Source: a virus (lineage: Duplodnaviria; Caudoviricetes). Taken from it: a DNA stretch of 64,000 bases. Under the pieces are notes generated by a model. The model had not been told where the DNA came from. It saw only the letters and a program-made list of their open reading frames with translations, and searched no databases. Positions 12,217 through 61,465 of this stretch are shown here, in pieces. Location of the stretch: positions 64,001 through 128,000 of the IMG/VR virus record IMGVR_UViG_3300046820_001270; one strand, given 5' to 3'. The translations under genes were made by a program, and so were the position numbers. Each line of letters starts with the position of its first letter. Within the stretch, counting starts at the first letter, position 1.

Positions 12217-13002
12217 TTAAAATTTTAATACTTGTTTCCATAAATTAAAAATATCATCATTTGTTAAATTAGAAACTTCATGTAGTGTTTGATCACAACC
12301 AAAAAACTTGGTATTTGTATAAAAACATTCATCTTTTACTAAACATGCAACTTCACCAATCGATGAATGATATACTCTACCCACACTATCATACATTTCT
12401 TGTTTAGAATTGGTATAACCCACAAATTCAACATAAGGATGATTTTCATATTTTTTTATATTTTTATTATAATACCCATCCATCACAATTTTACCACAAA
12501 TATAAATTTTTGTACATCCGTCCTTCAACGCTCTTTCAATAGATTGATGAGTTTGTTTTCTTTCTTCCACCGTACCAATAACACCAGCAACTAAATCTAA
12601 TTCAGATTTTTCTTTTGATACTAACAATTCTTTAGGGTTTGGTATTGTAGTGTATGGACCATTATATCTTGAGTGATAGTTTCTATGTTCTTCATGACTA
12701 AAAACTAACGTATCCCAATAATTTGGTATGTCTGCAACCTCAAACCACCATTTTTCATGACAACATAATACAACACTTTTCACATTTGGTCTTTTTTCTA
12801 ATTTTAAAAAATGTGTTAATAAAATGTCATCTTTATCTAATTTTAAATTACTTAACTTATCTGATTTACATTTATTTAAATGAAAATCATGAGGACCATA
12901 AAAAATTGTCTTGACCCCTCTTTCGTTAAACATATTTGTTAAATTGATAAGAATAGTTGTTGACCCTCCTTCGGCCGAATATCCCGAAATAATTTTTACC
13001 AT
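12217..13002 (-). CDS. GT-B (GT4-like) glycosyltransferase, compact
   Basis: GGS N-terminal loop, IPNP, GTVEERK, FVGY. Confidence 0.55.
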   Translation of the reverse strand: MVKIISGYSAEGGSTTILINLTNMFNERGVKTIFYGPHDFHLNKCKSDKLSNLKLDKDDILLTHFLKLEKRPNVKSVVLCCHEKWWFEVADIPNYWDTLVFSHEEHRNYHSRYNGPYTTIPNPKELLVSKEKSELDLVAGVIGTVEERKQTHQSIERALKDGCTKIYICGKIVMDGYYNKNIKKYENHPYVEFVGYTNSKQEMYDSVGRVYHSSIGEVACLVKDECFYTNTKFFGCDQTLHEVSNLTNDDIFNLWKQVLKF

Positions 13003-13550
13003 ATTCTTTTTAAAATTGTTAAACCATTATTATTATAAAATCTTTCCGCAATAATCCAATGAGGATTATTATTCATAAATTCCTCAATTGCCGGCCATAA
13101 ACCAATAGTATCTCCATTCATACCACTAAATTCAAATGATGTAGTATCATGAAAAATAATGTATTTTCTTGATTTATTACCGTGTAATGTTAATTCACCT
13201 TTAACTTGTTTATATGTGTGATCGGTATCTAAAAATAATAAATCAGTTTCTTCAATTTCAATATCTAAAGTACTACCTAAAATAAAATTAAAGTCAATTT
13301 CATTTTTTTTACCAAGTTCAATTACGTCATTTACATTAATTCCCCAATTTTCTAATGGATCAATATCATAGGAAATTAATTTTTTAGGTAGACCCATCAT
13401 AAACGCAATCGTTGAAACTAACCATCTAACCCCCATTTCTGTTATATGATCACAATCTTCGGCATATTTTTTTAAAGTTGGTAAATGCTCATTAATATCT
13501 GATACCAAATTACACCTATATTCGTAGTTATCTATTAAATCTTGTGTCAT
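12996..13550 (-). CDS. class I SAM-dependent methyltransferase (Methyltransf_24-like)
   Basis: TEMGVR, DLLFLDTDHTY, IIFHDT. Confidence 0.8.
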   Translation of the reverse strand: MTQDLIDNYEYRCNLVSDINEHLPTLKKYAEDCDHITEMGVRWLVSTIAFMMGLPKKLISYDIDPLENWGINVNDVIELGKKNEIDFNFILGSTLDIEIEETDLLFLDTDHTYKQVKGELTLHGNKSRKYIIFHDTTSFEFSGMNGDTIGLWPAIEEFMNNNPHWIIAERFYNNNGLTILKRIW

Positions 13551-14161
13551 ACTTTATAATAATTTTCTTTTAAATCATTTTCATTCACATAATTTATTTT
13601 TTTCATAATTACTTGATAACCATTATGAACTATTTCTAAATATTTGTGATAACCATGATAGAACGCATCGGCACCTGTTTTAACTTGTAAGTATTGTTCT
13701 TGTTCAAGTCCACCACCATAATCATCGAATATAATATAACCATTATTTTTCAAACAGTAAAATGCATTTACCGCATCTTCTAAAACATATTTACACATAT
13801 GATTACCATCTATGTAAACAAAGTCTAAAAACTCTTTAGTTTCACCATTATGGTTAAATGTTTTAAAACTATCGGCAGATTCACCTAATTGATATGTTAC
13901 TTTATCTTTATATGGTTTAATGTTATTTTCAATGAATTCATTTGTATTAATATCCATAATGTAATGATGAGATCCTTCTTTTTTACAGAATTTATCTAAG
14001 ATATAAACTGATGAACCACCATATAGTGCACCAATTTCTAAACATACTCTTGGTTCATCACCATAGTTAGGCAAATAATGATCCCAAGAATCGACATGAT
14101 TTAAAAAGAAATAACGTTCTCCTTCTGGATATTTAAAATGTTCTGGATATTGATAACTCAT
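13547..14161 (-). CDS. class I SAM-dependent methyltransferase (Methyltransf_24-like)
   Basis: LEIGALYGGS, FVYIDGNH, GYIIFDDY. Confidence 0.85.
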   Translation of the reverse strand: MSYQYPEHFKYPEGERYFFLNHVDSWDHYLPNYGDEPRVCLEIGALYGGSSVYILDKFCKKEGSHHYIMDINTNEFIENNIKPYKDKVTYQLGESADSFKTFNHNGETKEFLDFVYIDGNHMCKYVLEDAVNAFYCLKNNGYIIFDDYGGGLEQEQYLQVKTGADAFYHGYHKYLEIVHNGYQVIMKKINYVNENDLKENYYKV

Positions 14162-14778
14162 AATGAATTGTATAAATTGTTTTGTTTTTCTTGACGTTCA
14201 ATTGTCTTATGGTGCTGAATACAATATTCTTCGTCATTCGGTAATGAAGAAAACTTTTGACCACCTATTATTCTTTCATGTACCTTACCATACCAAGTCA
14301 TACCTTTACGATATATTCGTCCTTGAGCATCGGGAAAATTAACCCACCCATTTTCATTAACTCTCCAACCCCATTTTTTTACATGTTCTTCCGTCAAACC
14401 GTTAACAGTATTAATACGAGGAACAAATATTAAATCTACCTTTGGATTTAATTCTAAAATCTCGTGAAGATTTTTAACCATATATTCACTAATCATTTCG
14501 TCAGCGTCTAATTGATAGATGTAATCACCGGTACAATACTCATTCAATTTATTTTTCCAATCGGCAAAGTTTCCTTCAAAACCAAAACCTCTCCATGTTT
14601 GTACATTCGGTTTAATATTGTATGGTAAAAGAAAATCTAATATTTCAGGATTACCGTTCTTCTGATCATATAAAATTACTATTTCATCATTGTATCTTTT
14701 ATGTTCCAATAAAAACGGAACTAATCTTTTTATTTCCTTTAGTTCATTACAAACCGTAATTGCAAAACTTATTTTCAT
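14158..14778 (-). CDS. GT2 glycosyltransferase
   Basis: FAITVCNE, NFADWKN, LDADE, VHERI. Confidence 0.85.
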   Translation of the reverse strand: MKISFAITVCNELKEIKRLVPFLLEHKRYNDEIVILYDQKNGNPEILDFLLPYNIKPNVQTWRGFGFEGNFADWKNKLNEYCTGDYIYQLDADEMISEYMVKNLHEILELNPKVDLIFVPRINTVNGLTEEHVKKWGWRVNENGWVNFPDAQGRIYRKGMTWYGKVHERIIGGQKFSSLPNDEEYCIQHHKTIERQEKQNNLYNSL

Positions 14779-14779
14779 A

Positions 14780-15022
14780 TTATGCTCTTTGTCCTCCGTT
14801 TATTCTTCCCGTTAATATATTTATTACTTCGTTGTCAATTTCTTCCACAATTTGTTCCGACATTAATCTTGTTAATTCTGCCTCAGCATCAATTGAGTAA
14901 ACAGTATTTAAATCATCAACCAACTCAGGTCTCCATTGAGCACGTAGTGTTCTAACGATATTCTGAATACCTTCCGATTGAATTGTTATCCCATGAAAAA
15001 ATCTAAACTCTCTAACTCCCAT
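14780..15022 (-). CDS. small protein: FRFFHG tag + fragment resembling T4 gp23-type major capsid protein
   Basis: Start moved to ATG 15022. RTLRAQWRPELVDDL...SIDAEAELTRLMSEQIVEEIDNEVI matches my recollection of gp23 R-x-LKA-x-W/Y-x-x-ELAQDL...DAEAEL...EI-x-x-EI-x-x-E. Confidence 0.7.
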   Translation of the reverse strand: MGVREFRFFHGITIQSEGIQNIVRTLRAQWRPELVDDLNTVYSIDAEAELTRLMSEQIVEEIDNEVINILTGRINGGQRA

Positions 15023-15023
15023 A

Positions 15024-15254
15024 TTATTCTCTTTCTCTTGCGAATAATTTAAATACTCTACCATTATCATTAAATGTCATTTCAGTATTACTCGTTGGAC
15101 TTAAACGAATACTACAATCATTTGGACCATGGGCAAAAACGACTGGTTCGTCATCACCAAATTGAAAACAAAATTCAACATTTGATGGTTCAAATGAGAC
15201 CGGAGTAAAACATAATGTAGGTGTTTCATCACCTTTAAAAAATTTGAAGTTCAT
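15024..15254 (-). CDS. hypothetical protein with N-terminal FKFFKG tag
   Basis: MNFKFFKG start; abuts neighbouring genes. Confidence 0.75.
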   Translation of the reverse strand: MNFKFFKGDETPTLCFTPVSFEPSNVEFCFQFGDDEPVVFAHGPNDCSIRLSPTSNTEMTFNDNGRVFKLFARERE

Positions 15255-16516
15255 TATTTAACTTTATTTAATTTAGGTAATATTAATTTAGTTTGTTGTG
15301 GAGCAGGTTGTACAACAACTAAGTATGGTTTTAAAATTTCTTGAAAACGTTCTTTCATTTTTTCTAAAGAAAAGTTTTCTGAGTTCTGATCTTTTAATAA
15401 AATACTATTTGATGAAAATCTTGAATAATCATCTCTAACTAATTTCATTACTTCCACTACTTCATTATAATTTGCGGTGAACCACTTAGATCCTTTAATT
15501 ATGAATTGATCAATTGCACTATCATCAACATCGGTTAATTTACCACCAATCATAATACTTTTATCTGTCGGTAAAAAATCTTTTTGTCCTGACCAATTGG
15601 ACGCAATTACTGGTTTACCTGACATTGTGAATTCCAATAACGGTCTACCAAATCCCTCACCTTTAGTAATTGATATCATTGACTTAATCTTTTTATGATT
15701 ATATAAATCATTCATTTCTTTATTTGTTAAATCACCAAACAATAAATAAATAGATGGAGGGTTAGGTGTCTCACCGACTATATCTTTAATTCTTTTAATA
15801 AACACCTCACGTTCTTTAATTGAGAAACTTGATGATGATGTTTTTAAAACTAAAGCGGGAGATTTTTCATCGTCTTTAAATGCTTCAACGAAACACTTAA
15901 TTAACATACCAATATCTTTTCTATCTTGACCTACGTTTCCCTTTAACCAATGACCAACAAATAAAAATGCGAAGTCTTCTTTAACATTTAATTTAAATTT
16001 AGGATTAATAGTATCGTTATAGATTTTAGTATCAACACCTTCAAATAACACTTCAATTGGTTTTGTTATTTTATATTGATTAGTTAATTCATTTGTTGTT
16101 TTATTTCTTTCATCATAAACTGTCGATAATAAAACATTTTTAGAAAAATTGGAAGTGGCAATTATTAAATCCATTTGATTACAACCGTCTATCCAATCCT
16201 TAGGTGCTACAGTTGTTTCAATTCCTGCGGTGATACCAATATTAAACTTACCATATCTTTTAAATTCATTCGGTACGGTTACTTGTATATAGATATCAGG
16301 TAAACCGTCAAATTTAGATACAATATTACTTTCAATCCATTTGTGGAATATGTTATCAGACTCTAATGCTGTCATTGGAGTATTTCCCCACATACAACTA
16401 TCAATCTTAATATCAAATAAATTCATTTGATAAAGTGCTTCTAATAAATCTCTTGAGTGTGAACCATATCCACTTCTTGTTTTAACTGGTCCTCTAAATA
16501 ATATTGTTGGTTTCAT
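15254..16516 (-). CDS. GT4 glycosyltransferase
   Basis: SGYG, GEGFGRPLLEF, NWSG; similar to N-terminal domain of 4708-7710. Confidence 0.85.
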   Translation of the reverse strand: MKPTILFRGPVKTRSGYGSHSRDLLEALYQMNLFDIKIDSCMWGNTPMTALESDNIFHKWIESNIVSKFDGLPDIYIQVTVPNEFKRYGKFNIGITAGIETTVAPKDWIDGCNQMDLIIATSNFSKNVLLSTVYDERNKTTNELTNQYKITKPIEVLFEGVDTKIYNDTINPKFKLNVKEDFAFLFVGHWLKGNVGQDRKDIGMLIKCFVEAFKDDEKSPALVLKTSSSSFSIKEREVFIKRIKDIVGETPNPPSIYLLFGDLTNKEMNDLYNHKKIKSMISITKGEGFGRPLLEFTMSGKPVIASNWSGQKDFLPTDKSIMIGGKLTDVDDSAIDQFIIKGSKWFTANYNEVVEVMKLVRDDYSRFSSNSILLKDQNSENFSLEKMKERFQEILKPYLVVVQPAPQQTKLILPKLNKVK

Positions 16517-17886
16517 TAAATTACTTTATATAAATTAAATCTTTCACGTGGTGTAAAATTCTTTATTGTTTTTTCTATTCCTTCACTCATAGAGTCACAC
16601 ATAACTTTTGACGATAAGTTATTGATTGCCCACTCTCTTCCTACTTGACCATTCTCTTTTCTTTTTTCTTTACCTAACAAATACATTTCATTAATTGCAT
16701 TAGCAACTTCATTATTATTAACTCTATCATCATAGATATACGGTGTCAATGGAGATCCGTTTATGTTTGTTGCTGCCGGCCATACAGGTTTAACCCACAC
16801 ACCATGATCTGGTTTAACAAGTGAATTACTTAAAGTTTCGATAACAATGTATTGGTCGGGAGTTAAAAATTTACCATCATACCCAAACCCACATTGGTCT
16901 TGTAAACCACCTGTTACACTTACAATGATGGGTGTTCCCGCCATCATACTTTCCGCCGTACCTAAACCAAATCCTTCATTATTTGCAATGTTAATCGTAC
17001 AATCGGCAATGTTATATAGTTTATTTAAGAGATCATTTTCAATTTTGGTCGTTGAAAAAACGATATCATAATTTGGACATACCTTATCTTTAACAGCGTA
17101 TAAGTCTGTACCATTATTATCGATAGGAGCGGTGTGCATAACCAATACACACTTTTTAGATTGTTCTTTACTTAATTTATCACAGAATAATTTAAATGAT
17201 TCTATAACGTCCGCAGGTTGTTTTCTACGAATATTTCTGTTATTAAAAAATAAAACAAAATCGTATTCTTTACCCTCAAATAAATCCTTTTTAACTTGAG
17301 TTAATTCTTTTTCATCTAATGGTTTAAAAATATTTTCATTAATACCGTGAGGAACATAACTAATTTGCCAATCTTCCAATGGTTTACGAATACCATCTTC
17401 AATCTTACCAACACGATTAACAATACCGTATGTCAATTTAGAAATACAACCTAACCAATCACAACTTTCATAGTAATCTTTATTGTATAATGGATCGGGT
17501 ACGTTATCCCAAATGTGATAATATAAAATTGGGACTTGTTGTCTTATCTCATGTTCAGAATCATATAACCATTGCCAATAGTGAGGATCAGTAAAATGTA
17601 AGATAGCATCTATTTTCATTTCGCTTAATATTTTCCTCAACATTACAATATCACCATATGAATTATATGGTATAATTTTTAATTCGGCATCAGGAACACC
17701 AGTTTTTTCTCTAATATCAGTATCAACATCCACAAATTTACCAGCTTCATTATGATTAATACCCGCACCTAATTGAACCCAATTAAAACGATCAACGGTA
17801 CCCATCACAAACTCTCTTGACATTGTGGCGATACCCGATGTCATTCGTAAATCGTCTGATAGTAATAATATTCTTGGTTTACCCAT
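16516..17886 (-). CDS. GT4 glycosyltransferase
   Basis: Start moved to ATG 17886; TSGIA, NRNIRRK, NEGFGLGTAESMMAGTP. Confidence 0.85.
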   Translation of the reverse strand: MGKPRILLLSDDLRMTSGIATMSREFVMGTVDRFNWVQLGAGINHNEAGKFVDVDTDIREKTGVPDAELKIIPYNSYGDIVMLRKILSEMKIDAILHFTDPHYWQWLYDSEHEIRQQVPILYYHIWDNVPDPLYNKDYYESCDWLGCISKLTYGIVNRVGKIEDGIRKPLEDWQISYVPHGINENIFKPLDEKELTQVKKDLFEGKEYDFVLFFNNRNIRRKQPADVIESFKLFCDKLSKEQSKKCVLVMHTAPIDNNGTDLYAVKDKVCPNYDIVFSTTKIENDLLNKLYNIADCTINIANNEGFGLGTAESMMAGTPIIVSVTGGLQDQCGFGYDGKFLTPDQYIVIETLSNSLVKPDHGVWVKPVWPAATNINGSPLTPYIYDDRVNNNEVANAINEMYLLGKEKRKENGQVGREWAINNLSSKVMCDSMSEGIEKTIKNFTPRERFNLYKVI

Positions 17887-17887
17887 A

Positions 17888-18085
17888 TTAATATTTTGAT
17901 CCACTCACAGCTAAATCTGTGTAGTTATTTATTTTGCTTCTAAATGATTCATCTTTAACATAAAGATCTAATGTACGATTAACTAACTTTTGTAGGTTAA
18001 TATTACCATCAATTGCATTTATTTTAAATTTTCTGTAAACGTCTTCCAATACATGGACACTCGTTAATTTTTTTTCTACTTTCAT
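17888..18085 (-). CDS. small protein, possible ribbon-helix-helix DNA-binding fold
   Basis: KLTSVHV strand then two helices (YRKFKINA, LQKLVNRTLDLY). Confidence 0.6.
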   Translation of the reverse strand: MKVEKKLTSVHVLEDVYRKFKINAIDGNINLQKLVNRTLDLYVKDESFRSKINNYTDLAVSGSKY

Positions 18086-18120
18086 ATTCAATTATATATT
18101 TAGATATATATTACTAAATT

Positions 18121-18175: not shown

Positions 18176-18352
18176 CTATTGTTTGATTTGATTCAATTTC
18201 TCAACAATTGCGTCGACTATTAATTGTTGTTGATCAGGTAATGTACCGTTATTAGTTTGTTGATTAACTTGGTTTTCATCTAATGAAACGTTAATTTGTG
18301 TTGGTTCAGCTACTACTTGAGTAGTCTTGTTTTTTTTACATCCGCATCCCAT
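18176..18352 (-). CDS. 58-aa MGCGCKK protein (not in ORF track)
   Basis: ATG 18352 to TAG 18176, MGCGCKKNKTTQ...EKLNQIKQ; TATTTAT upstream and terminator downstream. Confidence 0.75.
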   Translation of the reverse strand: MGCGCKKNKTTQVVAEPTQINVSLDENQVNQQTNNGTLPDQQQLIVDAIVEKLNQIKQ

Positions 18353-18367
18353 AGTATTTCTTTTTTT

Positions 18368-18374
18368 ATAAATA
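18368..18374 (-). promoter_or_regulatory. putative late-promoter motif TATTTAT
   Basis: Upstream of ATG 18352 on minus strand. Confidence 0.45.
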
Positions 18375-48848: not shown

Positions 48849-49211
48849 ATGAAAACATTTTTATTTTTCCGCGGATTCGTAGAGAGTCCTTTATTGGATA
48901 TTGATTGGGAAGAAATCAATAGAAGAATGAATACCAATATAATACCAATAACGACATATCCAACTTGGACAGGGACGACTTATACTCCGACATGGGTTGT
49001 AAATCCGGGTTATATTACGTATACACAACCAAATTATTTAGCAACAACCGGTACATTTATAAATCCATATAATAATACCACAACAACTGCAACTAGTTTT
49101 AGTTTGACAACATCAAACCCAAATGGAATAACATATACCACAACAAGAAATGCAGGAACTTTAACAACAGGAACAGATTTATATTCAAGTAGTAGTTTTA
49201 AATTACAATAA
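48849..49211 (+). CDS. Thr-rich low-complexity protein with N-terminal FLFFRG tag
   Basis: MKTFLFFRG start; T/Y/P-rich tail. Confidence 0.7.
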   Translation: MKTFLFFRGFVESPLLDIDWEEINRRMNTNIIPITTYPTWTGTTYTPTWVVNPGYITYTQPNYLATTGTFINPYNNTTTTATSFSLTTSNPNGITYTTTRNAGTLTTGTDLYSSSSFKLQ

Positions 49212-50039
49212 ATGAAAAAAATAATTAATTTTACACCAACAGGTACTCAAACTACTCGTGAAAATTCATATGCACCATTATTACCAAATGAAATAATTGA
49301 AGAGGTTCATGAGGCAAATGAATTAGGTATTTCGATTGTTCATTTACACGCAAGAGATGAAGAAACATTAAAGAATACATATAAGAAAGAAGTTTACACT
49401 AAAATTATCGAGGGAATAAAAAAACATTGTCCTGAATTATTAATTTGTGTTTCATTAACAGGTAGAAACTTTCCTGAGTTAGAAAAAAGAACTGAGGTTC
49501 TACAACTACATCCCGATATGGGATCATTAACGATGTCATCATTAAACTTCCCAACAGGTGCGTCGGTTAATGAACCAAATATGATTTTATCATTAATTAA
49601 TGAAATGGAAAAGTATGGAGTTAATCCTGAGATAGAATGTTTTGATTCTGGTATGTTAAACTATACAAATTATTTAATATCAAAAAACATATTAAAAGGT
49701 CCACATTACATCAATGTGATATTGGGGAACATATACAATTCACAATCTGATATTCATACAATTGCATCAATTAAATCTTCATTACCTAAAAACTCTAAAG
49801 TTTGTTTTGGTGGTATTGGTTCGCAACAATTGAGAAGTAATGTTTATGGGTTACTTGAAGCAGATGGAGTTAGAATTGGTTTAGAAGATAACTTATATTA
49901 TAAAGATAAAGAGAAGGCAACCAACACACAATTATTAAAAAGAATTCATAACATTATGAATGACATGGAATTAGAAATTTTATCATCAAAAGAATTAAGA
50001 GATTTAGGATATGGAAACAAAAATATTAGTATTAGGTAA
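49212..50039 (+). CDS. beta-keto acid cleavage enzyme (BKACE/Kce, DUF849 family)
   Basis: TPTG, IVHLHARD, EIECFDSG, RIGLEDN. Confidence 0.9.
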   Translation: MKKIINFTPTGTQTTRENSYAPLLPNEIIEEVHEANELGISIVHLHARDEETLKNTYKKEVYTKIIEGIKKHCPELLICVSLTGRNFPELEKRTEVLQLHPDMGSLTMSSLNFPTGASVNEPNMILSLINEMEKYGVNPEIECFDSGMLNYTNYLISKNILKGPHYINVILGNIYNSQSDIHTIASIKSSLPKNSKVCFGGIGSQQLRSNVYGLLEADGVRIGLEDNLYYKDKEKATNTQLLKRIHNIMNDMELEILSSKELRDLGYGNKNISIR

Positions 50040-50682
50040 GGGAGATAATGTTATCACAATGATATTAGATAATCTATATTCTTACTCTATAGATAGATTA
50101 TTATATTTTGGTAAAGATATTGTTGTGTATAATAATTTAGATTTACCAATTTTAAATTCATTTGACCATGGCAAATTCAATATAGAAGTTTTAAATGAGG
50201 TTAATGTAGATGACTTTAATTTATATATATTAGGAATTTACCAACCTAAAAATAAAATTAAAATTATAGAATCGTTAAATCCTGATAAAAATAAATTCAT
50301 TAATGTTATTCATAAAGGAGAAGATATTTCATATACAAGTACACTTGGTTATGGATTATTAATTAATTCTAAAGTATCAATTGCAGCACATACGACAATC
50401 GGTAATTTTGTTTCAATAAACAGACATGTATCAATCGGTCATCACACAACTATCGGAGACTTCACCTCAATAAATCCAGGTGTCAATATTGCCGGTAATG
50501 TAACTATAGGTAAAGGTTGTCAAATAGGTATCGGTGCAAACATACTTGACGGAATCACAATAGGAGATAACACGGTAATAGGTGCGGGTTCATTAGTCAC
50601 CAAAGACATTCCAAATAATGTGGTTGCCTATGGTAGCCCTTGTAAAATAATAAATCATCAATATGAAACACAATCCATATAA
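50011..50682 (+). CDS. PglD/NeuD-like hexapeptide-repeat acetyltransferase
   Basis: IGHHTTIG, IGIGA, IGAGSLVTKDIP, GSPCK. Confidence 0.9.
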   Translation: METKILVLGKGDNVITMILDNLYSYSIDRLLYFGKDIVVYNNLDLPILNSFDHGKFNIEVLNEVNVDDFNLYILGIYQPKNKIKIIESLNPDKNKFINVIHKGEDISYTSTLGYGLLINSKVSIAAHTTIGNFVSINRHVSIGHHTTIGDFTSINPGVNIAGNVTIGKGCQIGIGANILDGITIGDNTVIGAGSLVTKDIPNNVVAYGSPCKIINHQYETQSI

Positions 50683-51259
50683 AATAGTTGAAATGTTTGA
50701 GGAGGAGATTGCGGAATATACTGGATCCCCTTACGCAATTGCGTTAGATAATTGTACTGATGCATTATTTCTGTGTTGTGTATATTCAAAGGTAACAGAA
50801 GTAACTATTCCTAAAAAAACGTATCTATCGGTACCACAAGCGATTATGTCTTCAGGTGGTAAAGTAATATTTGAGGATACGGAATGGAAAGGTCTTTATG
50901 AGTTAAAACCATATAAGATATATGATTCGGCAAGAAGATTTACAAGTGGTATGTACATACCAAATAGTTTTATGTGTCTTTCTTTTCATCCTAAAAAAAT
51001 ATTACAAATGAGAAAAGGTGGTATGATATTGACAGATAATGAAGATGCTTATAAATGGTTTAAAAAGGCTAGACACGAGGGGAGAGATGAAATACCATAT
51101 ACACAAGATAATATTAAGTTTTTAGGTTGGAATATGTATATGACACCACCAGATGCTGCCGATGGATTATGGTTGATGTCATCAATGCCAAAACATAACG
51201 AGGATACAATTGAAAATTACCCTGACTTAACAAAAAATGATTTATTCAATAAATTTTAA
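50663..51259 (+). CDS. short DegT/DnrJ/EryC1/StrS PLP aminotransferase-like protein
   Basis: FEEEIAEY, NCTDAL, DSA, SFHPKK (PLP Lys), GGMILTD; only 198 aa. Confidence 0.8.
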   Translation: MKHNPYKIVEMFEEEIAEYTGSPYAIALDNCTDALFLCCVYSKVTEVTIPKKTYLSVPQAIMSSGGKVIFEDTEWKGLYELKPYKIYDSARRFTSGMYIPNSFMCLSFHPKKILQMRKGGMILTDNEDAYKWFKKARHEGRDEIPYTQDNIKFLGWNMYMTPPDAADGLWLMSSMPKHNEDTIENYPDLTKNDLFNKF

Positions 51260-52222
51260 ATGATGGAGGATTTAATACTTATAACCGCATATTGCGAAAC
51301 TGAAAAACAAGAAGAGGCATTAAATAGATGTATTGATTCGGTAAGTAAACTCGGATTTCACATTTTACTAATATCTCATTCACATATACCAACATACATA
51401 CAAAAAAAATGTAATTATTATTTTTACGATTATAATAATGACGTTAGTGAGGATCATAATTTATTAGGACATTTTACTTTTAACTTTGATAATAAAAAAA
51501 TAAATTCTAGATTCTTTATTAAAAAATTTTACGGGTTTGCAATATATAGAATGTTTTCAATTGCTAGTCAAATAGCCACAAATTTTGGATATGATAATCT
51601 ACATCATATTGAATATGATTGTGAATTGTTGGATGAAAATTTAATCTTTGAAAATAAAGAAAATCTTAAAAAGTATGATTCAGTAATTTGTACTGACACT
51701 GGCGATAAAAACGGGTGGTTATATGGTTCATTTAAGTCATTCAAAGTTAAATCATTACCAGATAAATTTAAAAATTACGACAGAGATTTTATTGAATCTG
51801 AAATGAAAAATTTAACTAAAACACATTTAGAATTTTTAACAAAAAAATTATTTATTGATGGAGGAAAAACTTTATTTAAAAATGAACCACCTAAGGATAA
51901 GTTTAAAAAGGGAAATATATCCGAACATAGGTATCTACATTTTACACTTTATTTTGACCCTGAAAATGGAACATTGAATATTTTTTATAATGCAATTAAC
52001 TTAAAAAAATCGGAAGAAATAACTGTAATTGTAAATAGAGAAAAGGTAATTAATTTAATAACAAAACCTGGATTTTGGACTACAAGAGAACTGGGTAATT
52101 TTAATCAAATAACACACGTCAGAGTGGATAATAATAAAAAAGTTATTTATGAAATTGCATTTGACGACGATTTTAGAGAAATATTCAAAATAAAATCATA
52201 TATTACCGATAATGATAAATAA
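51260..52222 (+). CDS. hypothetical protein, possibly GT-A-like
   Basis: LISH, YDYNN, HIEYD motif; end of sugar-modification operon. Confidence 0.6.
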   Translation: MMEDLILITAYCETEKQEEALNRCIDSVSKLGFHILLISHSHIPTYIQKKCNYYFYDYNNDVSEDHNLLGHFTFNFDNKKINSRFFIKKFYGFAIYRMFSIASQIATNFGYDNLHHIEYDCELLDENLIFENKENLKKYDSVICTDTGDKNGWLYGSFKSFKVKSLPDKFKNYDRDFIESEMKNLTKTHLEFLTKKLFIDGGKTLFKNEPPKDKFKKGNISEHRYLHFTLYFDPENGTLNIFYNAINLKKSEEITVIVNREKVINLITKPGFWTTRELGNFNQITHVRVDNNKKVIYEIAFDDDFREIFKIKSYITDNDK

Positions 52223-52724
52223 ATTCAAATTTTTCAGAGGGTATATTGGAACGTTAGATATAATGGACGGACAAACATATGCAACAGCATCGTTATATTA
52301 CCCAAGATTAGATTCCAATAATGAAATGGAAAGATATTATGCTGAACATTTCCGAAGTCCTACTTATGGATCTCATATGGAAATGATTAGAGAAAATAGA
52401 CGTTTTGAACAAATGCGTAATCATGGAAGGATTTCACATGAACAATACATGAGAAATAGAGATATGTTGATTGAACAAGAAAGAATAAGAAGATTAGGAA
52501 TGATAAATCATTCAAGAGAAACCGATGAACGAATTAGATTGTTTCAAGCAACAACAACCATAACGGTGAATCCAACACTATGGACTAAAGTTAAAATATT
52601 CGGAACACGAGTTAAATTATTCTTCAAAGAATGTTTTAGACAAGAACCAATTGGTTTAATTTTTGTGACTTTATTGAGTTGTCTGATAACATTCGTCGGG
52701 ATTGCAAAATTATTTGGAGCATGA
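52212..52724 (+). CDS. FKFFRG-tagged hypothetical protein with C-terminal TM
   Basis: MINKFKFFRG. Confidence 0.75.
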   Translation: MINKFKFFRGYIGTLDIMDGQTYATASLYYPRLDSNNEMERYYAEHFRSPTYGSHMEMIRENRRFEQMRNHGRISHEQYMRNRDMLIEQERIRRLGMINHSRETDERIRLFQATTTITVNPTLWTKVKIFGTRVKLFFKECFRQEPIGLIFVTLLSCLITFVGIAKLFGA

Positions 52725-52999
52725 TAGGAAAATTCAAATTTTTTAGTTCCAATGAAAAAATAACAATGAGATTTAGTCCTCATTGTTGTTATGACAATGC
52801 AAAATATATTCTTGAAAGTTTAATTAGTACTGATGAATGGGAAACAACAGTATTCCCAAAAGAATATCCACATGATCGAGGAACTTGGAGAATTCTTTAT
52901 ATTCAACAAAGAGAAAATAATTATCATTCTGTTGTTTGTTGGGTACCAAGAAATCCAGGATACATAACCGAAAGATTTTTAGTTAATATAGATTTATGA
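52721..52999 (+). CDS. FKFF-tagged hypothetical protein
   Basis: Start ATG 52721 (ATGA overlap), MIGKFKFFSS. Confidence 0.7.
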   Translation: MIGKFKFFSSNEKITMRFSPHCCYDNAKYILESLISTDEWETTVFPKEYPHDRGTWRILYIQQRENNYHSVVCWVPRNPGYITERFLVNIDL

Positions 53000-53331
53000 T
53001 TAGAAACTTTAAATTTTTAACGGATAATGATACCAATGAATTAGAATTCGGAGGATTTGTTCATGATCTTCATGACGGATTTGCAAGTTGGATGTGGACA
53101 GGAAGAGACTATTTAGATAGAGACCCAAATTGGGTGGAAGAAGTAATGACCACCACAAGTATTAGAACTTTTTTAATGAACTTTCCTGAACAAATGATAG
53201 TACCAATATTATCTATAACGGGAGATAATATAACGATGACAATAGATAATGACCACGATCCGTGGCCTTTTAATATATTAGGAGGAACACCACTTCGTAT
53301 AACCTTTTTAAGATGGATACCAGAAGTTTAA
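52996..53331 (+). CDS. FKFL-tagged hypothetical protein
   Basis: MIRNFKFLTD. Confidence 0.75.
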   Translation: MIRNFKFLTDNDTNELEFGGFVHDLHDGFASWMWTGRDYLDRDPNWVEEVMTTTSIRTFLMNFPEQMIVPILSITGDNITMTIDNDHDPWPFNILGGTPLRITFLRWIPEV

Positions 53332-53332
53332 A

Positions 53333-53339
53333 TATTTAT
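53333..53339 (+). promoter_or_regulatory. putative late-promoter motif TATTTAT
   Basis: 4 nt before ATG 53344. Confidence 0.5.
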
Positions 53340-53343
53340 TAAT

Positions 53344-53466
53344 ATGAGTTCAAAATTTTTTACTAACCCACAACAATCTAAGATAGATAAAGGGGCAAAG
53401 AAACCAGCAACAACTAAACCAGTCAAAACCAATACCCAAATTAAGAAGACGGGAAGAGGTAAATAG
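53344..53466 (+). CDS. 40-aa basic peptide (not in ORF track)
   Basis: MSSKFFTNPQQ...IKKTGRGK. Confidence 0.65.
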   Translation: MSSKFFTNPQQSKIDKGAKKPATTKPVKTNTQIKKTGRGK

Positions 53467-53468
53467 GA

Positions 53469-53475
53469 TATTTAT
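53469..53475 (+). promoter_or_regulatory. putative late-promoter motif TATTTAT
   Basis: 5 nt before ATG 53481. Confidence 0.5.
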
Positions 53476-53480
53476 ATCTA

Positions 53481-54296
53481 ATGAGTGGATTAACAACAAT
53501 TAAATTAAGTAGTGAAGACCTTAAGAAAGAACAAGAACGCCAACGAAAAAGAGGTAGATTGATCTTTAATACCTTTAAAAAAGGTAAGGTTAAGGTTGTA
53601 ATTGGTCGATATGATGAAGACGGAACAGTTCCTGACATTATATTTCAATATCAAATACATGACGCACACTTTAGATCAATTGTAGATTACACTAACGGAG
53701 AAGTAATCTGTGTAATGGATTGTTATTATGATGATATAGATATTCTTAATGAAGACGGTAGTGAAATAACAGAAAAATTACCTCTTTGGTTAGTTTCGGA
53801 AATTGAGAACAAAATTGAAGATAAGTTTGGTGGTTTTAACATCGAACTCCGTTATATGCAACAATCAGACGGGAAAGGAAAGAAAAGTTTGGTTAATGAA
53901 GATGTAAGTGAACATCAGAAAATGATCAACAAGGTTAGGGTAATATATAAAGCACACAGAAACGGACATTATGATTTTAAGTACGGTCCTCAAAAAGACG
54001 AAATAAAACACGTAAGTTGGGTACTCCCACCTAAATTTAGTATTAAAATAAAAGAATATAGTCAAGAAGACAGTGAAAGATTTGGTTATGAAAATTACCC
54101 TATTTTGACGTTGAACACAGAAACTATTAATTTTATTACAGAAGACGGTAAACCTATTCAGAGTGGAGAGAAAATGGTCATTGGTTCAAAAATAACGAGT
54201 ATCTTTAAGAAACATAGAATAACCGTATATTGGACAGGAAATAAGAATACAACGGACGATTACACACAGATAGATATTACCCCAAAATCAAAATAA
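53481..54296 (+). CDS. repeat-domain family protein A (2 domain copies)
   Basis: RGRLIFNTFKKG and KVRVIYKAHRNG, linker LVNE. Confidence 0.8.
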   Translation: MSGLTTIKLSSEDLKKEQERQRKRGRLIFNTFKKGKVKVVIGRYDEDGTVPDIIFQYQIHDAHFRSIVDYTNGEVICVMDCYYDDIDILNEDGSEITEKLPLWLVSEIENKIEDKFGGFNIELRYMQQSDGKGKKSLVNEDVSEHQKMINKVRVIYKAHRNGHYDFKYGPQKDEIKHVSWVLPPKFSIKIKEYSQEDSERFGYENYPILTLNTETINFITEDGKPIQSGEKMVIGSKITSIFKKHRITVYWTGNKNTTDDYTQIDITPKSK

Positions 54297-54297
54297 A

Positions 54298-54329
54298 TTT
54301 GGATATTCCAAATGGGGGTTGTATATTTG
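54298..54329 (+). promoter_or_regulatory. Bacteroidota-type promoter
   Basis: TTTG 54298-54301, 20-nt spacer, TATATTTG 54322-54329. Confidence 0.75.
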
Positions 54330-54333
54330 TTTC

Positions 54334-54510
54334 ATGAAAGTAAAAATAACAGTAAAATACCATATTGAAATTGGTAATGAAGTCATTGAGTGTGAATCAC
54401 TTGAACAGGCTGAACGTAAATTAAAACACATCTCAGAGGTTGAGAGATATCTTATCAAAACCGAATTAAAGGGAGATCAAATCGTTGCTCAGTATTTAAT
54501 AGGTCAATAA
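54334..54510 (+). CDS. hypothetical protein
   Basis: Start ATG 54334 just after promoter. Confidence 0.65.
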   Translation: MKVKITVKYHIEIGNEVIECESLEQAERKLKHISEVERYLIKTELKGDQIVAQYLIGQ

Positions 54511-54512
54511 GG

Positions 54513-54519
54513 TATTTAT
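54513..54519 (+). promoter_or_regulatory. putative late-promoter motif TATTTAT
   Basis: Upstream of HNH gene. Confidence 0.4.
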
Positions 54520-54524
54520 TATGA

Positions 54525-54848
54525 ATGAACAGAAAAGAGTATAGGAGACTATTACAGGACCCCAAATGGAAGATCAAGGCTTCCTTCATCAGGAAGAGAG
54601 ATAACCACTCCTGCGTCAGATGTGGGAAGAAATCACATAGATTACAGGTTCATCACACCAAATATGAAGATGGTTTAATGCCGTGGGAGTATGATAATGA
54701 TACGTTAGAGTCGTTATGTTCGGGTTGTCATAAGAAAGAACATAACATTAAACCTAAAAGGAGATTTACCCCGAGAAAGAAGAAAGAACCCAAATTACAA
54801 ACAAGGGTGATTAAGATTAAACCAATTGACGATAACTCTTGGAGTTAG
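54525..54848 (+). CDS. HNH endonuclease
   Basis: RDNHSCVRCG...LQVHH...LESLCSGCHKKEH. Confidence 0.88.
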   Translation: MNRKEYRRLLQDPKWKIKASFIRKRDNHSCVRCGKKSHRLQVHHTKYEDGLMPWEYDNDTLESLCSGCHKKEHNIKPKRRFTPRKKKEPKLQTRVIKIKPIDDNSWS

Positions 54849-54849
54849 A

Positions 54850-54856
54850 TATTTAT
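54850..54856 (+). promoter_or_regulatory. putative late-promoter motif TATTTAT
   Basis: 5 nt before ATG 54862. Confidence 0.5.
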
Positions 54857-54861
54857 ATACA

Positions 54862-55587
54862 ATGAAGTTCATAGATTTAATAAAAGAAGACGAATATACA
54901 AGACAATACAAGAAAGCTCATACTATCTATAAAGCACTTAGAAAGGGTAAAGCAACTGTTTCGGTAAATGTAGCTTATACCGAAAGAAATGGAATTGAAT
55001 TACACACATTTGAATACATGTTACCAAAAGAGAATTATATAATAAATGTTACTAATTTGTATGGAAGTACCACGACACATATTCGTTGTGAAAAAATGGT
55101 AATAATCGGTAAAAAAATACCAATTATGGACACATTGATTATTGGTGCGGTTAGTAAAAGATTTTCAAAGGATTTTGGAATTGATTTAATTATTAATGAT
55201 GTTGAATATACTGAGGAAGGTGTTAGAAATGATGGTTTATTAAAAGAAGAACCAAACGAACGTGAATTGGAAATAGAAAAAGTTAAAACCAAAACAAAGA
55301 CTGTTTATAAGGCACTTAAAAAAGGAACTTTAAATGTTCGTTATGCACATGGACAACCGGATGTGAAATTTAAATATGAATTACCTGACGAATATAGAAT
55401 AAAAGTATTAGGGAGTACGACAGAAGGATTTAAATCATACATCAAATTAACATGTAATCATGTTAAAATTGAAACATTAGATGGTATTGAACGTGACGAC
55501 AACCAAAAATTTGGGATAGGTTTTCCGGCAATTAAACACAAATTCGGTTCTTTTGATATTGAAATGGATTGTCTTTTTGGTAGTTAA
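54862..55587 (+). CDS. repeat-domain family protein B (2 domain copies)
   Basis: Start ATG 54862 MKFIDLIKE; KAHTIYKALRKG, KTKTVYKALKKG, linker LLKE. Confidence 0.8.
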   Translation: MKFIDLIKEDEYTRQYKKAHTIYKALRKGKATVSVNVAYTERNGIELHTFEYMLPKENYIINVTNLYGSTTTHIRCEKMVIIGKKIPIMDTLIIGAVSKRFSKDFGIDLIINDVEYTEEGVRNDGLLKEEPNERELEIEKVKTKTKTVYKALKKGTLNVRYAHGQPDVKFKYELPDEYRIKVLGSTTEGFKSYIKLTCNHVKIETLDGIERDDNQKFGIGFPAIKHKFGSFDIEMDCLFGS

Positions 55588-55687
55588 CAATTCTTGTTTG
55601 GTTTTACCCAAATAAACTTTATGATGTCCAAAAAATTATTTAAATTAATAGTACTTATTTAAGATTAGACAAATACAATTATACATT

Positions 55688-55924
55688 ATGGATATTAATG
55701 AATTATATGAAAGATATATGACGGCGTATAAAATAGAAATCAGGGAATGTGAAACACCATATAGTGTTGATCTATTAAGAGATATAGATATGTTAGAAAA
55801 TTTAACTATCGATGAGTTTAAAGACAAATTAAAAAACCCAACGTTTAATAATAAATGGGGTGATGAGCCAAACAATTCAAGTAACTTTATGTACAACTGG
55901 ATTAGGGATAAGAGCGGTAAATAG
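55688..55924 (+). CDS. hypothetical protein
   Basis: 78-aa ORF. Confidence 0.6.
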   Translation: MDINELYERYMTAYKIEIRECETPYSVDLLRDIDMLENLTIDEFKDKLKNPTFNNKWGDEPNNSSNFMYNWIRDKSGK

Positions 55925-55927
55925 TTT

Positions 55928-57160
55928 TTATAATTTAACCCAAGTTCCGTTATGTTTTAAACGAAATTTTGTTGCTCTAAGAATAATGTTCAACCCAAAG
56001 TTGTTAAATTTTTTCTTAACAATATTAAGAATGTCCATTTTAATTGTTTGAATATTATTTAAATTTGGGTTTTCGTCACAGTTAATTTTAATTGATGGTA
56101 TTAAAACTTTGACATTGTAATTATTTTCAAATGGATCTGTCTCAACAATATATACATCACCTAAATCATAATCAAATGTGTATTTTTGTGGGTCAGTTGC
56201 ACCTCGATAAAATAATCTTATTGCATCAACCTCCATTGTTACCTTACCTTTCTTTAAAGCTTTAAAAACAGTTGGTGCTTTTTTAACAAGTGTTTCATGT
56301 TCGTTCTCATTCTCTTCTTTTACAATATGAGTTTCAGTATTTTTAAATGCATCTTTGTATTTGGTGAATATCATATCACAATTAGAATCAAAATTAATAA
56401 ATCTCATTTTAATTTTATGGCGAAACGATTCTAACAATTCAATTTGAACTGCACCATTTTTTGCTTTGAAATCGTATTCAATCTTTACATCTTCAATCGG
56501 AATAAAAAATGATACGGGTCGATTAAAAATGTTATTAAAATCTAATCTTATTCTAAATTTTTTTGGTAATTCGTAATCAGCAACAACCACAACCTGTTCT
56601 CCGTTATTAAATATTGGAGGTACTTTAACTTTAACTTTTCCTTTTCTAAAACTTTTGTAAACTAATTTGGACTTATTAATTATTCTTTGTTTTTCTTGTT
56701 CATCATCAACACTTTCATCAATCATATTTTCATATGCACTTGGAACGTTATGTTTTTTTCTAATACTAAATCTAATTTGTTCACCTTCGTCGAATGTACC
56801 CTTTAATGAATTATTAAATTTACGAGCAAGTTTTCTTAATATATCTTCTCTAATATCAATATCATCAGCAAGAGAAGGATATCTTTCACAGTTTATAGTT
56901 ATACCTGTTATTATCACTTCATAAGCTAACATTTGATTTCCTGACGTTAGATGATATGTGGTAGGTAGTTCATATGTGATAACAACATCTTTATCATCAA
57001 TTATTTCAAATCCAGTCCAAAATGGAACCATATCGGGGAGTAGATTACCAATCTTAAAACCACCTGTTCTTAGTGTCTTATACATAAGTTTAACCTTACG
57101 AGACACCTTACGGTAATCGTCACTTAACTCAGCTTCCCCCAAAATATCCACAAATTTCAT
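55928..57160 (-). CDS. repeat-domain family protein C (3 domain copies)
   Basis: MKFVDILGE; KVKLMYKTLRTG, KSKLVYKSFRKG, KAPTVFKALKKG; linkers MIDE, IVKE. Confidence 0.85.
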   Translation of the reverse strand: MKFVDILGEAELSDDYRKVSRKVKLMYKTLRTGGFKIGNLLPDMVPFWTGFEIIDDKDVVITYELPTTYHLTSGNQMLAYEVIITGITINCERYPSLADDIDIREDILRKLARKFNNSLKGTFDEGEQIRFSIRKKHNVPSAYENMIDESVDDEQEKQRIINKSKLVYKSFRKGKVKVKVPPIFNNGEQVVVVADYELPKKFRIRLDFNNIFNRPVSFFIPIEDVKIEYDFKAKNGAVQIELLESFRHKIKMRFINFDSNCDMIFTKYKDAFKNTETHIVKEENENEHETLVKKAPTVFKALKKGKVTMEVDAIRLFYRGATDPQKYTFDYDLGDVYIVETDPFENNYNVKVLIPSIKINCDENPNLNNIQTIKMDILNIVKKKFNNFGLNIILRATKFRLKHNGTWVKL

Positions 57161-57166
57161 ATCTTT

Positions 57167-57173
57167 ATAAATA
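57167..57173 (-). promoter_or_regulatory. putative late-promoter motif TATTTAT
   Basis: 6 nt before ATG 57160 on minus strand. Confidence 0.5.
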
Positions 57174-57185
57174 TACCTGAAATTG

Positions 57186-57217
57186 TTTGGATATTATACT
57201 AAAAACTCTTATATTTG
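57186..57217 (+). promoter_or_regulatory. Bacteroidota-type promoter
   Basis: TTTG 57186-57189, 20-nt spacer, TATATTTG 57210-57217. Confidence 0.75.
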
Positions 57218-57235
57218 GGTATAAAACTATATATT

Positions 57236-57544: not shown

Positions 57545-57547
57545 GTT

Positions 57548-58347: not shown

Positions 58348-58393
58348 AACTTATATTATACATAAAATATTTGAGAATAGAAAGGTAGGGGTA

Positions 58394-58425: not shown

Positions 58426-58452
58426 TTGTTGGGAATATTAAAAAATTATAAT

Positions 58453-61464: not shown

Positions 61465-61465
61465 T

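What the first reader, a model, noticed from the sequence alone, without database searches (positions are those of the whole stretch)
14780..15022. Stand-alone fragment of a gp23-like major capsid protein carrying the FxFF tag
Seen: in this 80-aa ORF, about 50 residues (RTLRAQWRPELVDDL...IDAEAELTRLMSEQIVEEIDNEVI) follow the pattern I recall for the segment leading into and including the long backbone helix of T4 gp23-type capsid proteins. The rest of the HK97 fold is absent, the N-terminus is MGVREFRFFHG, and the gene sits within the GT island. Inference: a capsid mimic, acting either as a dominant-negative inhibitor of a competing phage's head assembly (by analogy with satellite capsid interference) or as an adaptor recruiting GTs or chaperonin to capsid protein. 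It also suggests the phage has a T4-like head.
Basis: partly seen in the sequence, partly recalled or inferred. Interest (0 to 1): 0.76.

Follow-up and report, generated by a model that had tools for sequence, protein, structure and literature searches.

The report
Stand-alone capsid-protein fragment gene
A giant freshwater phage and hundreds of uncultured relatives keep a tiny, strongly selected gene that encodes only one inner piece of their T4-type capsid protein, always inside a sugar-transferase operon. It is a real protein derived from the capsid protein, and its job is still unknown.

Summary
ORF 14780-15022 (minus strand, 80 aa) matches Pfam Gp23 above the curated cut-off (E 4.8e-12) and matches the clade's own capsid proteins (hhalign E 1e-25). 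The homology covers residues 14-74. These equal T4 gp23 254-314: the E-loop return strand, the short P-domain helix and the spine helix, including the four T4 head-length sites A268, A275, D285 and D287.

It is not a decaying relic:
- All 40 loci with a complete copy have an intact tag-to-stop frame.
- dN/dS is about 0.21 overall and 0.08 over the N-terminal 31 codons.
- More than 500 protein clusters exist, reaching down to about 37% identity.

Relatives are about 335-kb phages. One complete relative encodes a separate full 591-aa capsid protein that is only 49% identical to the fragment.

The gene always sits directly behind the same 416-420-aa glycosyltransferase and, where the contig continues, ahead of a GT2 or another sugar-pathway gene. 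A small beta-sandwich protein precedes it in all but one locus. It carries the N-terminal F-K/R-F-F-x-G motif shared with about 25 other small proteins. One allele has spread by recombination across diverged genomes.

The function is inferred only. My lead reading is a capsid-protein mimic that ties the operon to the head. A defence decoy and a capsid-unrelated role remain open. The scan noted the same kind of gene in another genome.

The parts
14780..15022 (-). Gene for the 80-aa stand-alone capsid-protein fragment ('mini-MCP'), stop codon included
   Evidence: ORF. Pfam Gp23 E 4.8e-12. A frame running from the tag motif to a stop is intact in all 40 related loci that hold a complete copy. 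dN/dS is 0.21.
14990..15007 (-). Codons 6-11, the N-terminal motif F-R-F-F-H-G (family consensus F-K-F-F-x-G)
   Evidence: F6, F8 and F9 are at least 90% conserved and G11 is invariant in the family alignment. The same motif opens at least 10 ORFs in the window and about 25 in the complete relative G003. Codons 1-31 have dN/dS 0.08.
14801..14983 (-). Codons 14-74, the stretch homologous to the capsid protein: E-loop return strand (about 14-30), short P-domain helix (32-42) and spine helix (46-about 72)
   Evidence: hhalign against the capsid-protein alignment places residues 14-74 on MCP 349-409. BLASTP gives 49% identity to the relative's MCP. Mapping to T4 gp23 254-314 comes from the phmmer alignment to PDB chains. 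AF2 predicts helices at 32-42 and 46-74 with low confidence.
14783..14806 (-). Codons 73-80, the conserved C-terminal end R-I-N-G-G-Q-R-A (family consensus ...R-x-I-N-G-G-x-R-A)
   Evidence: Most family members end in N/Q-R-A.
15024..15254 (-). Upstream partner gene 'small76' (76 aa). It starts MNFKFFKG and its stop lies 1 nt before the fragment's ATG
   Evidence: It stands immediately upstream of the fragment in 15 of the 16 loci examined for neighbours; L044 lacks it. It has 363 homologues and no Pfam family. The AF2 model is a six-strand beta sandwich, pLDDT 68.8, with only generic Ig/FN3-like matches at Z about 4.3.
15254..16516 (-). 420-aa GT-B type glycosyltransferase, always directly upstream of the small-gene pair
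   Evidence: Pfam Glycos_transf_1 at 26.8 bits; phrog_2170 E 3e-22. Synteny.
16516..17904 (-). 462-aa GT4-type glycosyltransferase
   Evidence: Pfam Glycos_transf_1 E 7.4e-11. Synteny.
14158..14778 (-). 206-aa GT2 glycosyltransferase directly downstream. Its first 60 nt or so belong to the same high-identity recombination block as the fragment
   Evidence: Pfam Glycos_transf_2 E 1.8e-09. Block limits.

Best explanation
Shown: this is a genuine, expressed-type small gene and not debris. Its product joins three parts:
- a short N-terminal motif (F-K/R-F-F-x-G) that this phage puts on about 25 small proteins;
- about 60 residues copied from the middle of a T4-type major capsid protein, namely the E-loop return strand, the short P-domain helix and the spine helix;
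- a conserved ...N-G-G-x-R-A end.

Purifying selection holds it, most strongly on the motif plus the strand. It is a fixed member of a glycosyltransferase operon in about 335-kb freshwater phages. These phages also encode a normal, separate capsid protein.

Inferred: the family keeps many of the residues that capsid proteins keep, although the rest of the fold is missing, and it does not fold confidently on its own. It therefore most likely works by mimicry. It would present this capsid-protein surface in soluble form and bind something that normally contacts that surface.

My preferred version is that it docks on the phage's own capsid protein, procapsid or their assembly partners. In that way it would couple the operon's products (the small beta-sandwich protein encoded just upstream, and the sugar transferases) to the head, as an adaptor for head decoration or glycosylation. 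The binding partner, the timing of expression and any glycosylated target are all untested.
For: Homology and extent.

Mapping onto T4 gp23 254-314: the four T4 head-length sites (A268, A275, D285, D287) fall on fragment residues A28, V35, D45 and E47. This comes from the alignment plus PMC9546572 section 13. That paper places the short P-domain helix at the quasi-threefold contacts between capsomers.

Selection:
- 40 of 40 loci with a complete copy are intact.
- Across 137 pairs, dN/dS is 0.21, falling to 0.08 for codons 1-31.
- Against L010 and L011, omega is 0.16-0.19 at dS of about 0.6.

Same constraints as real capsid proteins: per-site conservation correlates (Spearman 0.56, p 4e-6), and the consensus residue is identical at 37 of 59 columns.

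Not self-sufficient: the AF2 model has pLDDT 54.6, with only the two helices formed.

Fixed operon place, down to 37-45% identity.

The upstream neighbour models as a small Ig/FN3-like sandwich. By established knowledge, phages carry this kind of domain mostly on virion proteins.

A separate full capsid protein exists in the complete relative.

One lineage (P0165) has a core much closer to the resident capsid protein: 63% amino-acid and 78% nucleotide identity, against 49% and 57% for the window's fragment. Likeness to the capsid protein therefore appears to be renewed.
Against: No test showed binding to anything.

The short P-domain helix, the element that makes capsomer contacts in T4, is the less conserved part of the fragment family.

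The fragment is no closer to its own clade's capsid protein (49%) than to those of distant phages (54.5% to Flavobacterium phage immuto). There is thus no sign of co-evolution with the resident capsid protein in most lineages.

One near-identical allele sits in genomes whose flanks differ by 15-25%, and next to two very different alleles of the upstream gene. The architecture is also plastic, with inserts and added N-arm pieces. Both patterns are typical of arms-race genes rather than assembly factors.

The sugar island's target is unknown.
Confidence: 0.35

Rival explanations
1. Capsid-unrelated exaptation. The capsid-derived hairpin and helices are only a convenient scaffold for one more member of the phage's F-K-F-F-x-G small-protein family. 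Its partner would be a host factor or the operon's own enzymes, not the head.
For: The most constrained part is the shared motif plus the strand, with omega 0.08. The motif is carried by about 25 unrelated small proteins clustered in one hyperplastic region. Tag-to-tag recombination is visible: P0165 has lost the upstream gene and starts with that gene's motif. The capsomer-contact helix is relaxed.
Against: The family keeps the capsid family's consensus residues at 37 of 59 columns after divergence to about 40% identity. One lineage has been re-matched to the resident capsid protein. Both are hard to explain if the capsid likeness were irrelevant.
Confidence: 0.25
2. Counter-defence decoy. 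The protein imitates a very conserved capsid-protein stretch that a host immune sensor reads. It occupies or misleads that sensor.
For: Capsid proteins are known triggers of bacterial defences: Gol/Lit in T4 (PMC3014915) and CapRel (PMC9712102, listed). The gene shows an allele sweep across diverged genomes, plastic architecture and renewed likeness to the capsid protein. Some variants (P0132, P0149, P0270) add the N-arm stretch that corresponds to the Gol region of T4.
Against: No defence system is known to read this stretch (T4 254-314). A free copy of a trigger would be expected to set off the sensor rather than block it. The gene sits in a sugar-transferase operon, not among early or anti-defence genes.
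Confidence: 0.2
3. Weapon against rival phages. A dominant-negative piece caps or distorts the capsomers of co-infecting relatives, as satellite proteins redirect helper capsids.
For: The stretch covers the T4 sites where single changes alter head length. Capsid-protein homologues that redirect assembly are known, such as Ccm of SaPIbov5 (PMC8569155).
Against: The fragment is as similar to its own phage's capsid protein as to others, so self-poisoning would have to be avoided somehow. The contact helix is the less conserved part. The fixed place in a glycosylation operon is unexplained.
Confidence: 0.1
4. Functionless leftover of a capsid-gene duplication.
For: It is short, covers only a sixth of the capsid profile, and has a poor stand-alone structure model.
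Against: All 40 loci with a complete copy have intact frames. dN/dS is 0.21 overall and 0.08 in the N-terminal third, with synonymous variation at conserved residues. More than 500 clusters of about the same length exist. Synteny is kept down to 37% identity.
Confidence: 0.03

Closest known systems
T4 gp23-family major capsid proteins (Pfam PF07068; PDB 5VF3, 6UZC, 8T9R)
   Same: Clear sequence homology over the E-loop return strand, short P-domain helix and spine helix. The same residues are conserved (R-x-L-R-A-x-W, I-D-A-E-A-E-L-T).
   Different: Only about 60 of about 520-590 residues are present. There is no N-terminal propeptide, insertion domain, A-domain or P-loop, so it cannot build a shell. 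It has a foreign N-terminal motif and its own C-terminal end. It is encoded far from the head genes, while a normal capsid protein exists elsewhere in the genome.
Ccm of SaPIbov5, a satellite-encoded homologue of the helper phage capsid protein that redirects head shape (PMC8569155, PMC5052747), and T4 gp24, the vertex paralogue of gp23
   Same: These are capsid-protein paralogues kept for an accessory role alongside the main capsid protein.
   Different: Both are full-length HK97-fold proteins that enter the shell. This one is a sub-domain fragment, encoded by the phage itself, inside a glycosyltransferase operon.
T4 Gol peptide, the 29-residue stretch in the first quarter of gp23 that binds EF-Tu and activates the Lit protease (PMC3014915)
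   Same: It is a short, highly conserved capsid-protein stretch that is active on its own. Some family variants (P0132, P0149, P0270) append the equivalent N-arm stretch.
   Different: The window's protein maps to T4 254-314, not to the Gol region. Gol is not a separate gene in T4.
T4 internal proteins with the shared N-terminal capsid-targeting sequence
   Same: A short common N-terminal motif sits on otherwise unrelated small proteins that are encoded in a plastic, recombining region.
   Different: The motif here (F-K-F-F-x-G) has no conserved L/I-x-E protease site. No evidence of packaging exists. The fragment itself lies outside the tagged-gene cluster.

Membership tests
Gp23-type major capsid protein (PF07068) | Significant match to the family profile | tested here: met
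   46.4 bits against a gathering score of 24.4, E 4.8e-12. hhalign E 1.1e-25.
Gp23-type major capsid protein (PF07068) | Complete HK97 fold (N-arm, E-loop, P-domain, A-domain) able to form capsomers | tested here: not met
   The protein is 80 aa. The match covers profile positions 135-194 of 376 only, equal to MCP 349-409 of 591. It is a derivative of the family, not a capsid subunit.
Full-length capsid paralogues with accessory roles (gp24, Ccm) | Full-length capsid-protein homologue that co-assembles into the shell | tested here: not met
   Length and coverage as above.
Gol-type capsid peptide | Corresponds to the N-arm stretch in the first quarter of gp23 | tested here: not met
   The fragment maps to T4 254-314. 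The N-arm stretch (T4 91-126) aligns with MCP 70-105 and is present only in variants such as P0132.
T4-type capsid-targeting-sequence proteins | Shared N-terminal leader on unrelated small proteins | tested here: met
   The F-K-F-F-x-G motif opens at least 10 ORFs in the window and about 25 in G003.
T4-type capsid-targeting-sequence proteins | Leader ends in an L/I-x-E prohead-protease site | tested here: not met
   The residue before the invariant Gly varies (H, E, R, K, Q, S), so there is no conserved Glu.
T4-type capsid-targeting-sequence proteins | Protein is packaged in the head | not testable with these tools
   This needs virion proteomics.
Capsid decoration proteins (Soc, Hoc and similar) | Sequence or fold likeness to a known decoration protein | tested here: inconclusive
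   Neither the fragment nor small76 hits a Pfam or PHROG decoration family. The small76 model gives only generic Ig/FN3-like matches, Z about 4.3.

The most novel reading that the evidence does not exclude
The mini-protein is a soluble docking hub. It would keep the part of the HK97 fold that binds scaffold or cargo peptides in procapsids and encapsulins (the spine helix plus a remnant of the N-arm, R-R-I-N-G-G against the capsid proteins' R-R-V-F-G-G). It would use this part to bind short terminal labels. Candidate labels are the similar C-terminal endings of three enzymes of its own operon (N-L-Y-K-V-I, N-L-Y-N-S-L, N-Y-Y-K-V) or the F-K-F-F-x-G motif. It would thereby assemble the sugar-transfer enzymes, or load proteins into the head. 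This would be a capsid-cargo interaction moved outside the capsid.
Probability: 0.07. Interest if true: 0.85.

Novelty: new variant of a known kind. Interest (0 to 1): 0.6.

Why it matters
Capsid proteins are usually thought of as whole building blocks. This case is a widespread family in which about 60 residues of a T4-type capsid protein have been cut out, given a new N-terminal label and kept under strong selection as a separate protein. It occurs in abundant, uncultured freshwater giant phages (more than 500 clusters at 90% identity).

If it acts by mimicry, it would be a simple, testable case of a virus re-using a piece of its own shell protein as a soluble binding module. The partner could be the head, the glycosylation machinery or a host sensor.

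It also marks which stretch of the capsid protein has a partner worth mimicking. In T4 that same stretch carries head-length mutations. Finally, it links two other unexplained features of this phage: the sugar island and the F-K-F-F-x-G protein family.

Tried and rejected
- Complex prediction of the fragment with the upstream 76-aa protein: score 0.02, no answer either way.
- RNA runs: the first query listed none. The second listed three metatranscriptome libraries. Their short contigs lie on 14798-14997, 14743-14891 and 14994-15179 at 85-97% likeness. Contigs in RNA libraries do not prove transcription, so I count this as no more than a hint.
- Whether the upstream 76-aa protein is another capsid piece: hhalign probability 0.2%, rejected.
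- Whether the F-K-F-F-x-G motif is homologous to the outgoing E-loop strand or N-part of the capsid protein: hhalign E 0.43, not supported. A BLAST alignment of P0165 does run the motif onto MCP 330-335 (F-R-L-Y-E-S), but that may be chance.
- A second capsid piece (N-arm-like) in a tagged 157-aa protein of G003 is weak: Pfam 18.9 bits, below the cut-off; hhalign E 2e-4 at probability 45%; clade HMM E 0.47.
- A tree of the 59 shared columns is unresolved. A single clade of capsid proteins is not rejected (p-AU 0.40), so the number of origins is open.
- Cultured phages: tblastn found only full capsid proteins and no stand-alone copy.
- Fold searches for small76 gave only generic sandwiches.
- The TATTTATA motif is not enriched in the window (17 found, 20.6 expected). 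The promoter and terminator scan was uninformative.
- No whole genome is held for the window. Searching loci with the family alignment failed for lack of a conserved block.

Full report
**What is there.** The minus strand carries an ORF from the ATG at 15022 to the stop at 14780-14782. Its 80-aa product begins M-G-V-R-E-F-R-F-F-H-G. A 76-aa ORF (15024-15254) ends one base before this ATG. The pair sits inside a run of minus-strand genes: two GT-B type glycosyltransferases upstream (462 and 420 aa), then a GT2 (206 aa), two methyltransferase-like genes and further transferases downstream. A longer 96-aa reading from 15070 is possible. However, distant homologues all begin M-x(1-3)-F-K-F-F, so the 80-aa form is the likely product.

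**The capsid likeness is real.** The evidence is as follows.
- Pfam Gp23 scores 46.4 bits against a gathering score of 24.4 (E 4.8e-12), covering profile positions 135-194 of 376.
- PHROG 138, major head protein, gives E 2.6e-11.
- tblastn against cultured phages hits only annotated major capsid proteins, at 40-55% identity.
- The window holds no full capsid gene. It is part of a roughly 334-kb phage genome.
- A complete relative (G003, 335,630 bp, CheckV 100%) carries the fragment and, 177 kb away, a normal 591-aa Gp23-family capsid protein (E 1.8e-63).
- The fragment is 49% identical to that capsid protein over residues 349-405.
- A profile of the fragment family aligns to a profile of capsid proteins with probability 99.7% and E 1.1e-25. 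Fragment residues 14-74 fall on MCP 349-409.

**Which part of the capsid protein.** The relative's capsid protein aligns without gaps to solved T4 gp23 in this region. Fragment residue n therefore corresponds to T4 residue n+240, and the fragment covers T4 254-314. The numbering is confirmed by four residues named in Fang et al. 2022 (PMC9546572, section 13): A268, A275, D285 and D287. These fall on the expected letters of the T4 sequence and on fragment A28, V35, D45 and E47. According to that paper, changes at these four sites alter T4 head length. They lie by the short, negatively charged P-domain helix, which contacts neighbouring capsomers near the quasi-threefold axes. The fragment is therefore the E-loop return strand, that short helix and the long spine helix. 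An AF2 model built with a 30-sequence alignment shows helices at 32-42 and 46-74. It has low confidence (pLDDT 54.6) and a disordered N-terminal third. This is what one expects of a piece that needs a partner, but it is not proof.

**It is a selected gene family.**
- The large protein collection holds 503 clusters of similar length at 86-99% identity. Some lie on contigs of 120-335 kb.
- At 50% clustering the family reaches down to about 39% identity.
- In all 40 loci that hold a complete copy, a frame from the N-terminal motif to a stop codon is intact. These loci come from viral and metagenome contigs.
- Among 19 distinct 240-nt alleles (137 pairs, dS 0.15-1.5), dN/dS is 0.21 overall. It is 0.08 for codons 1-31 (motif plus strand) and 0.25 for the rest. 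Synonymous variation occurs at conserved residues.
- Against L010 and L011, omega is 0.16-0.19 at dS of about 0.6, like the neighbouring enzymes.
- Per-site conservation in the family follows that of real capsid proteins (Spearman 0.56, p 4e-6). The consensus residue is identical at 37 of 59 columns. The short P-domain helix is more relaxed than in capsid proteins.

**Context.** In every locus where neighbours could be read, including homologues at 37-45% identity, the fragment follows directly behind the same 416-420-aa transferase. The 76-86-aa gene lies between them in 15 of 16 loci, and where the contig continues a GT2 or another sugar-pathway gene follows. The typical order is GT (about 457 aa), GT (416-420 aa), the 76-86-aa gene, the fragment, then GT2. 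The exception is L044, where the upstream small gene is missing and an epimerase-type gene follows the fragment. There the fragment starts with that neighbour's version of the motif. This looks like a motif-to-motif deletion. One other contig shows two adjacent Gp23-fragment genes among small genes.

The upstream protein has 363 homologues and no known family. It is not capsid-derived. It models as a six-strand beta sandwich (pLDDT 68.8) with only generic Ig/FN3-like matches (Z about 4.3). One of its allele types lacks the F-K-F-F motif altogether.

**Recombination.** In L003-L009 the fragment, together with the first 60 nt or so of the GT2 gene, is 93-100% identical in nucleotides to the window. 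The flanking enzymes are only 77-86% identical (dS 0.6-1.1). The upstream small gene may even be a different allele at 33% amino-acid identity. One allele of the fragment has therefore spread through diverged genomes. In another lineage (P0165), the capsid-like core is 63% (amino acid) and 78% (nucleotide) identical to the resident-type capsid protein, against 49% and 57% for the window's copy. This suggests gene conversion from, or fresh capture of, the capsid gene. A tree of the 59 shared columns cannot resolve the number of origins.

**The motif and the ends.**
- F6, F8 and F9 are at least 90% conserved in the family, and G11 is invariant.
- The same F-K-F-F-x-G start is found on at least 10 small ORFs of the window.
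- In G003 it is found on about 25 ORFs. Almost all of these lie in one 15-kb array of overlapping small genes. The only two outliers are the fragment and its upstream neighbour.
- Family members with very short linkers place the motif 3-5 residues from the return strand (for example F-K-F-F-H-G-F-V-G-P-R-R-I-V-V-N-W). Motif and strand may therefore form a hairpin like the base of an E-loop. This is my inference, and a profile comparison found no homology of the motif to the capsid protein.
- Most members end in ...N-G-G-x-R-A.
- Some variants (P0132, P0149, P0270) instead continue into a clear copy of the capsid N-arm stretch (P-x-I-R-x-V ... V-Q-P-M). That stretch corresponds to T4 91-126, the region that contains the Gol peptide (PMC3014915).

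**How it most likely works.**
- Shown: it is a selected small protein derived from the capsid protein. It has a fixed operon position, spreads by recombination, and co-exists with a separate normal capsid gene.
- Inferred: it acts by presenting a capsid-protein surface in soluble form.
- I give 0.35 to the reading that it docks on the phage's own capsid protein, procapsid or their partners, and links the operon's products to the head.
- I give 0.25 to a capsid-unrelated role as one more member of the tagged small-protein family.
- I give 0.20 to a decoy for a capsid-sensing host defence.
- I give 0.10 to interference with rival phages.
- I give 0.03 to a functionless relic.
- The allele sweep, plastic architecture and renewed capsid likeness favour conflict-type roles. 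The operon position and the Ig-like neighbour favour a virion role. Nothing I could run separates them.

**Comparison with what is known.** It belongs to the Gp23 family by sequence only and cannot be a capsid subunit. The nearest described cases are full-length capsid paralogues with accessory roles (T4 gp24; Ccm of SaPIbov5, PMC8569155) and the Gol peptide, a capsid stretch active on its own. None of these is a separate, tagged, 60-residue sub-domain gene. I found no paper describing such a family. The ESM Atlas lists clusters of about 70-90-aa 'Gp23 domain-containing' proteins without further annotation. Earlier unchecked notes of this scan report the same kind of gene in another genome, and stand-alone Gol-type pieces in other T4-like giant phages. 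I used these notes as leads only.

**Verdict.** This is a new variant of a known kind, and I score interest at 0.6.

Noticed in passing
window 48849-62587 (+); G003 335395-17493 (loci L043, L027): There are arrays of small, often stop-start overlapping genes whose products all begin M-x(1-3)-F-K-F-F-x-G. The recurring C-terminal N-E-T-I of several of them arises because the upstream stop lies inside the next gene's F-K codons (A-ATG-AAA-CCA-TTT-AAA). Two members (59269, 62051) contain a G-W...N-P-Y...W..G-W pattern reminiscent of ribosome modulation factor, but Pfam gives no hit.
   Followed up: partly
G003 12980-13453 (L027): A tagged 157-aa protein carries an N-arm-like stretch (I-A-R-R-G-A-G-R-T-I-A-Q-D-L-V-P-V-Q-P), which could be a second capsid-derived piece. 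Support is weak: Pfam Gp23 at 18.9 bits, below the cut-off; hhalign E 2e-4; clade HMM E 0.47.
   Followed up: partly
window 16516-17904, 14158-14778, 13547-14161 (all -): Three unrelated enzymes of the operon end alike: ...N-L-Y-K-V-I, ...N-L-Y-N-S-L (Y-S-K-I or Y-S-T-I in relatives) and ...N-Y-Y-K-V. This may be the same kind of C-terminal label that an earlier follow-up described in the neighbouring island.
   Followed up: partly
window 17888-18091 (-) and 18176-18352 (-): Two small conserved ORFs head the minus-strand block. One is a 67-aa protein, also present in L012, L014 and L025. The other is a 58-aa protein starting M-G-C-G-C-K-K, preceded by TATTTATA (18367-18374) and followed by a hairpin plus T-run. 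Neither hits Pfam.
   Followed up: partly
window 15024-15254 (-) and loci L003, L005-L008: The upstream 76-aa gene exists as two allele types that are only about 33% identical. One type replaces the F-K-F-F motif by a Lys-rich start (M-A-K-S-T-K-K-K-K), yet it sits next to a fragment gene that is 95-100% identical to the window's.
   Followed up: yes
JGI contig in sample 3300075153 (no DNA available): Two adjacent small genes (92 and 74 aa) both hit Pfam Gp23 and sit among other small genes. This may be a split version of the longer P0132-type architecture.
   Followed up: no
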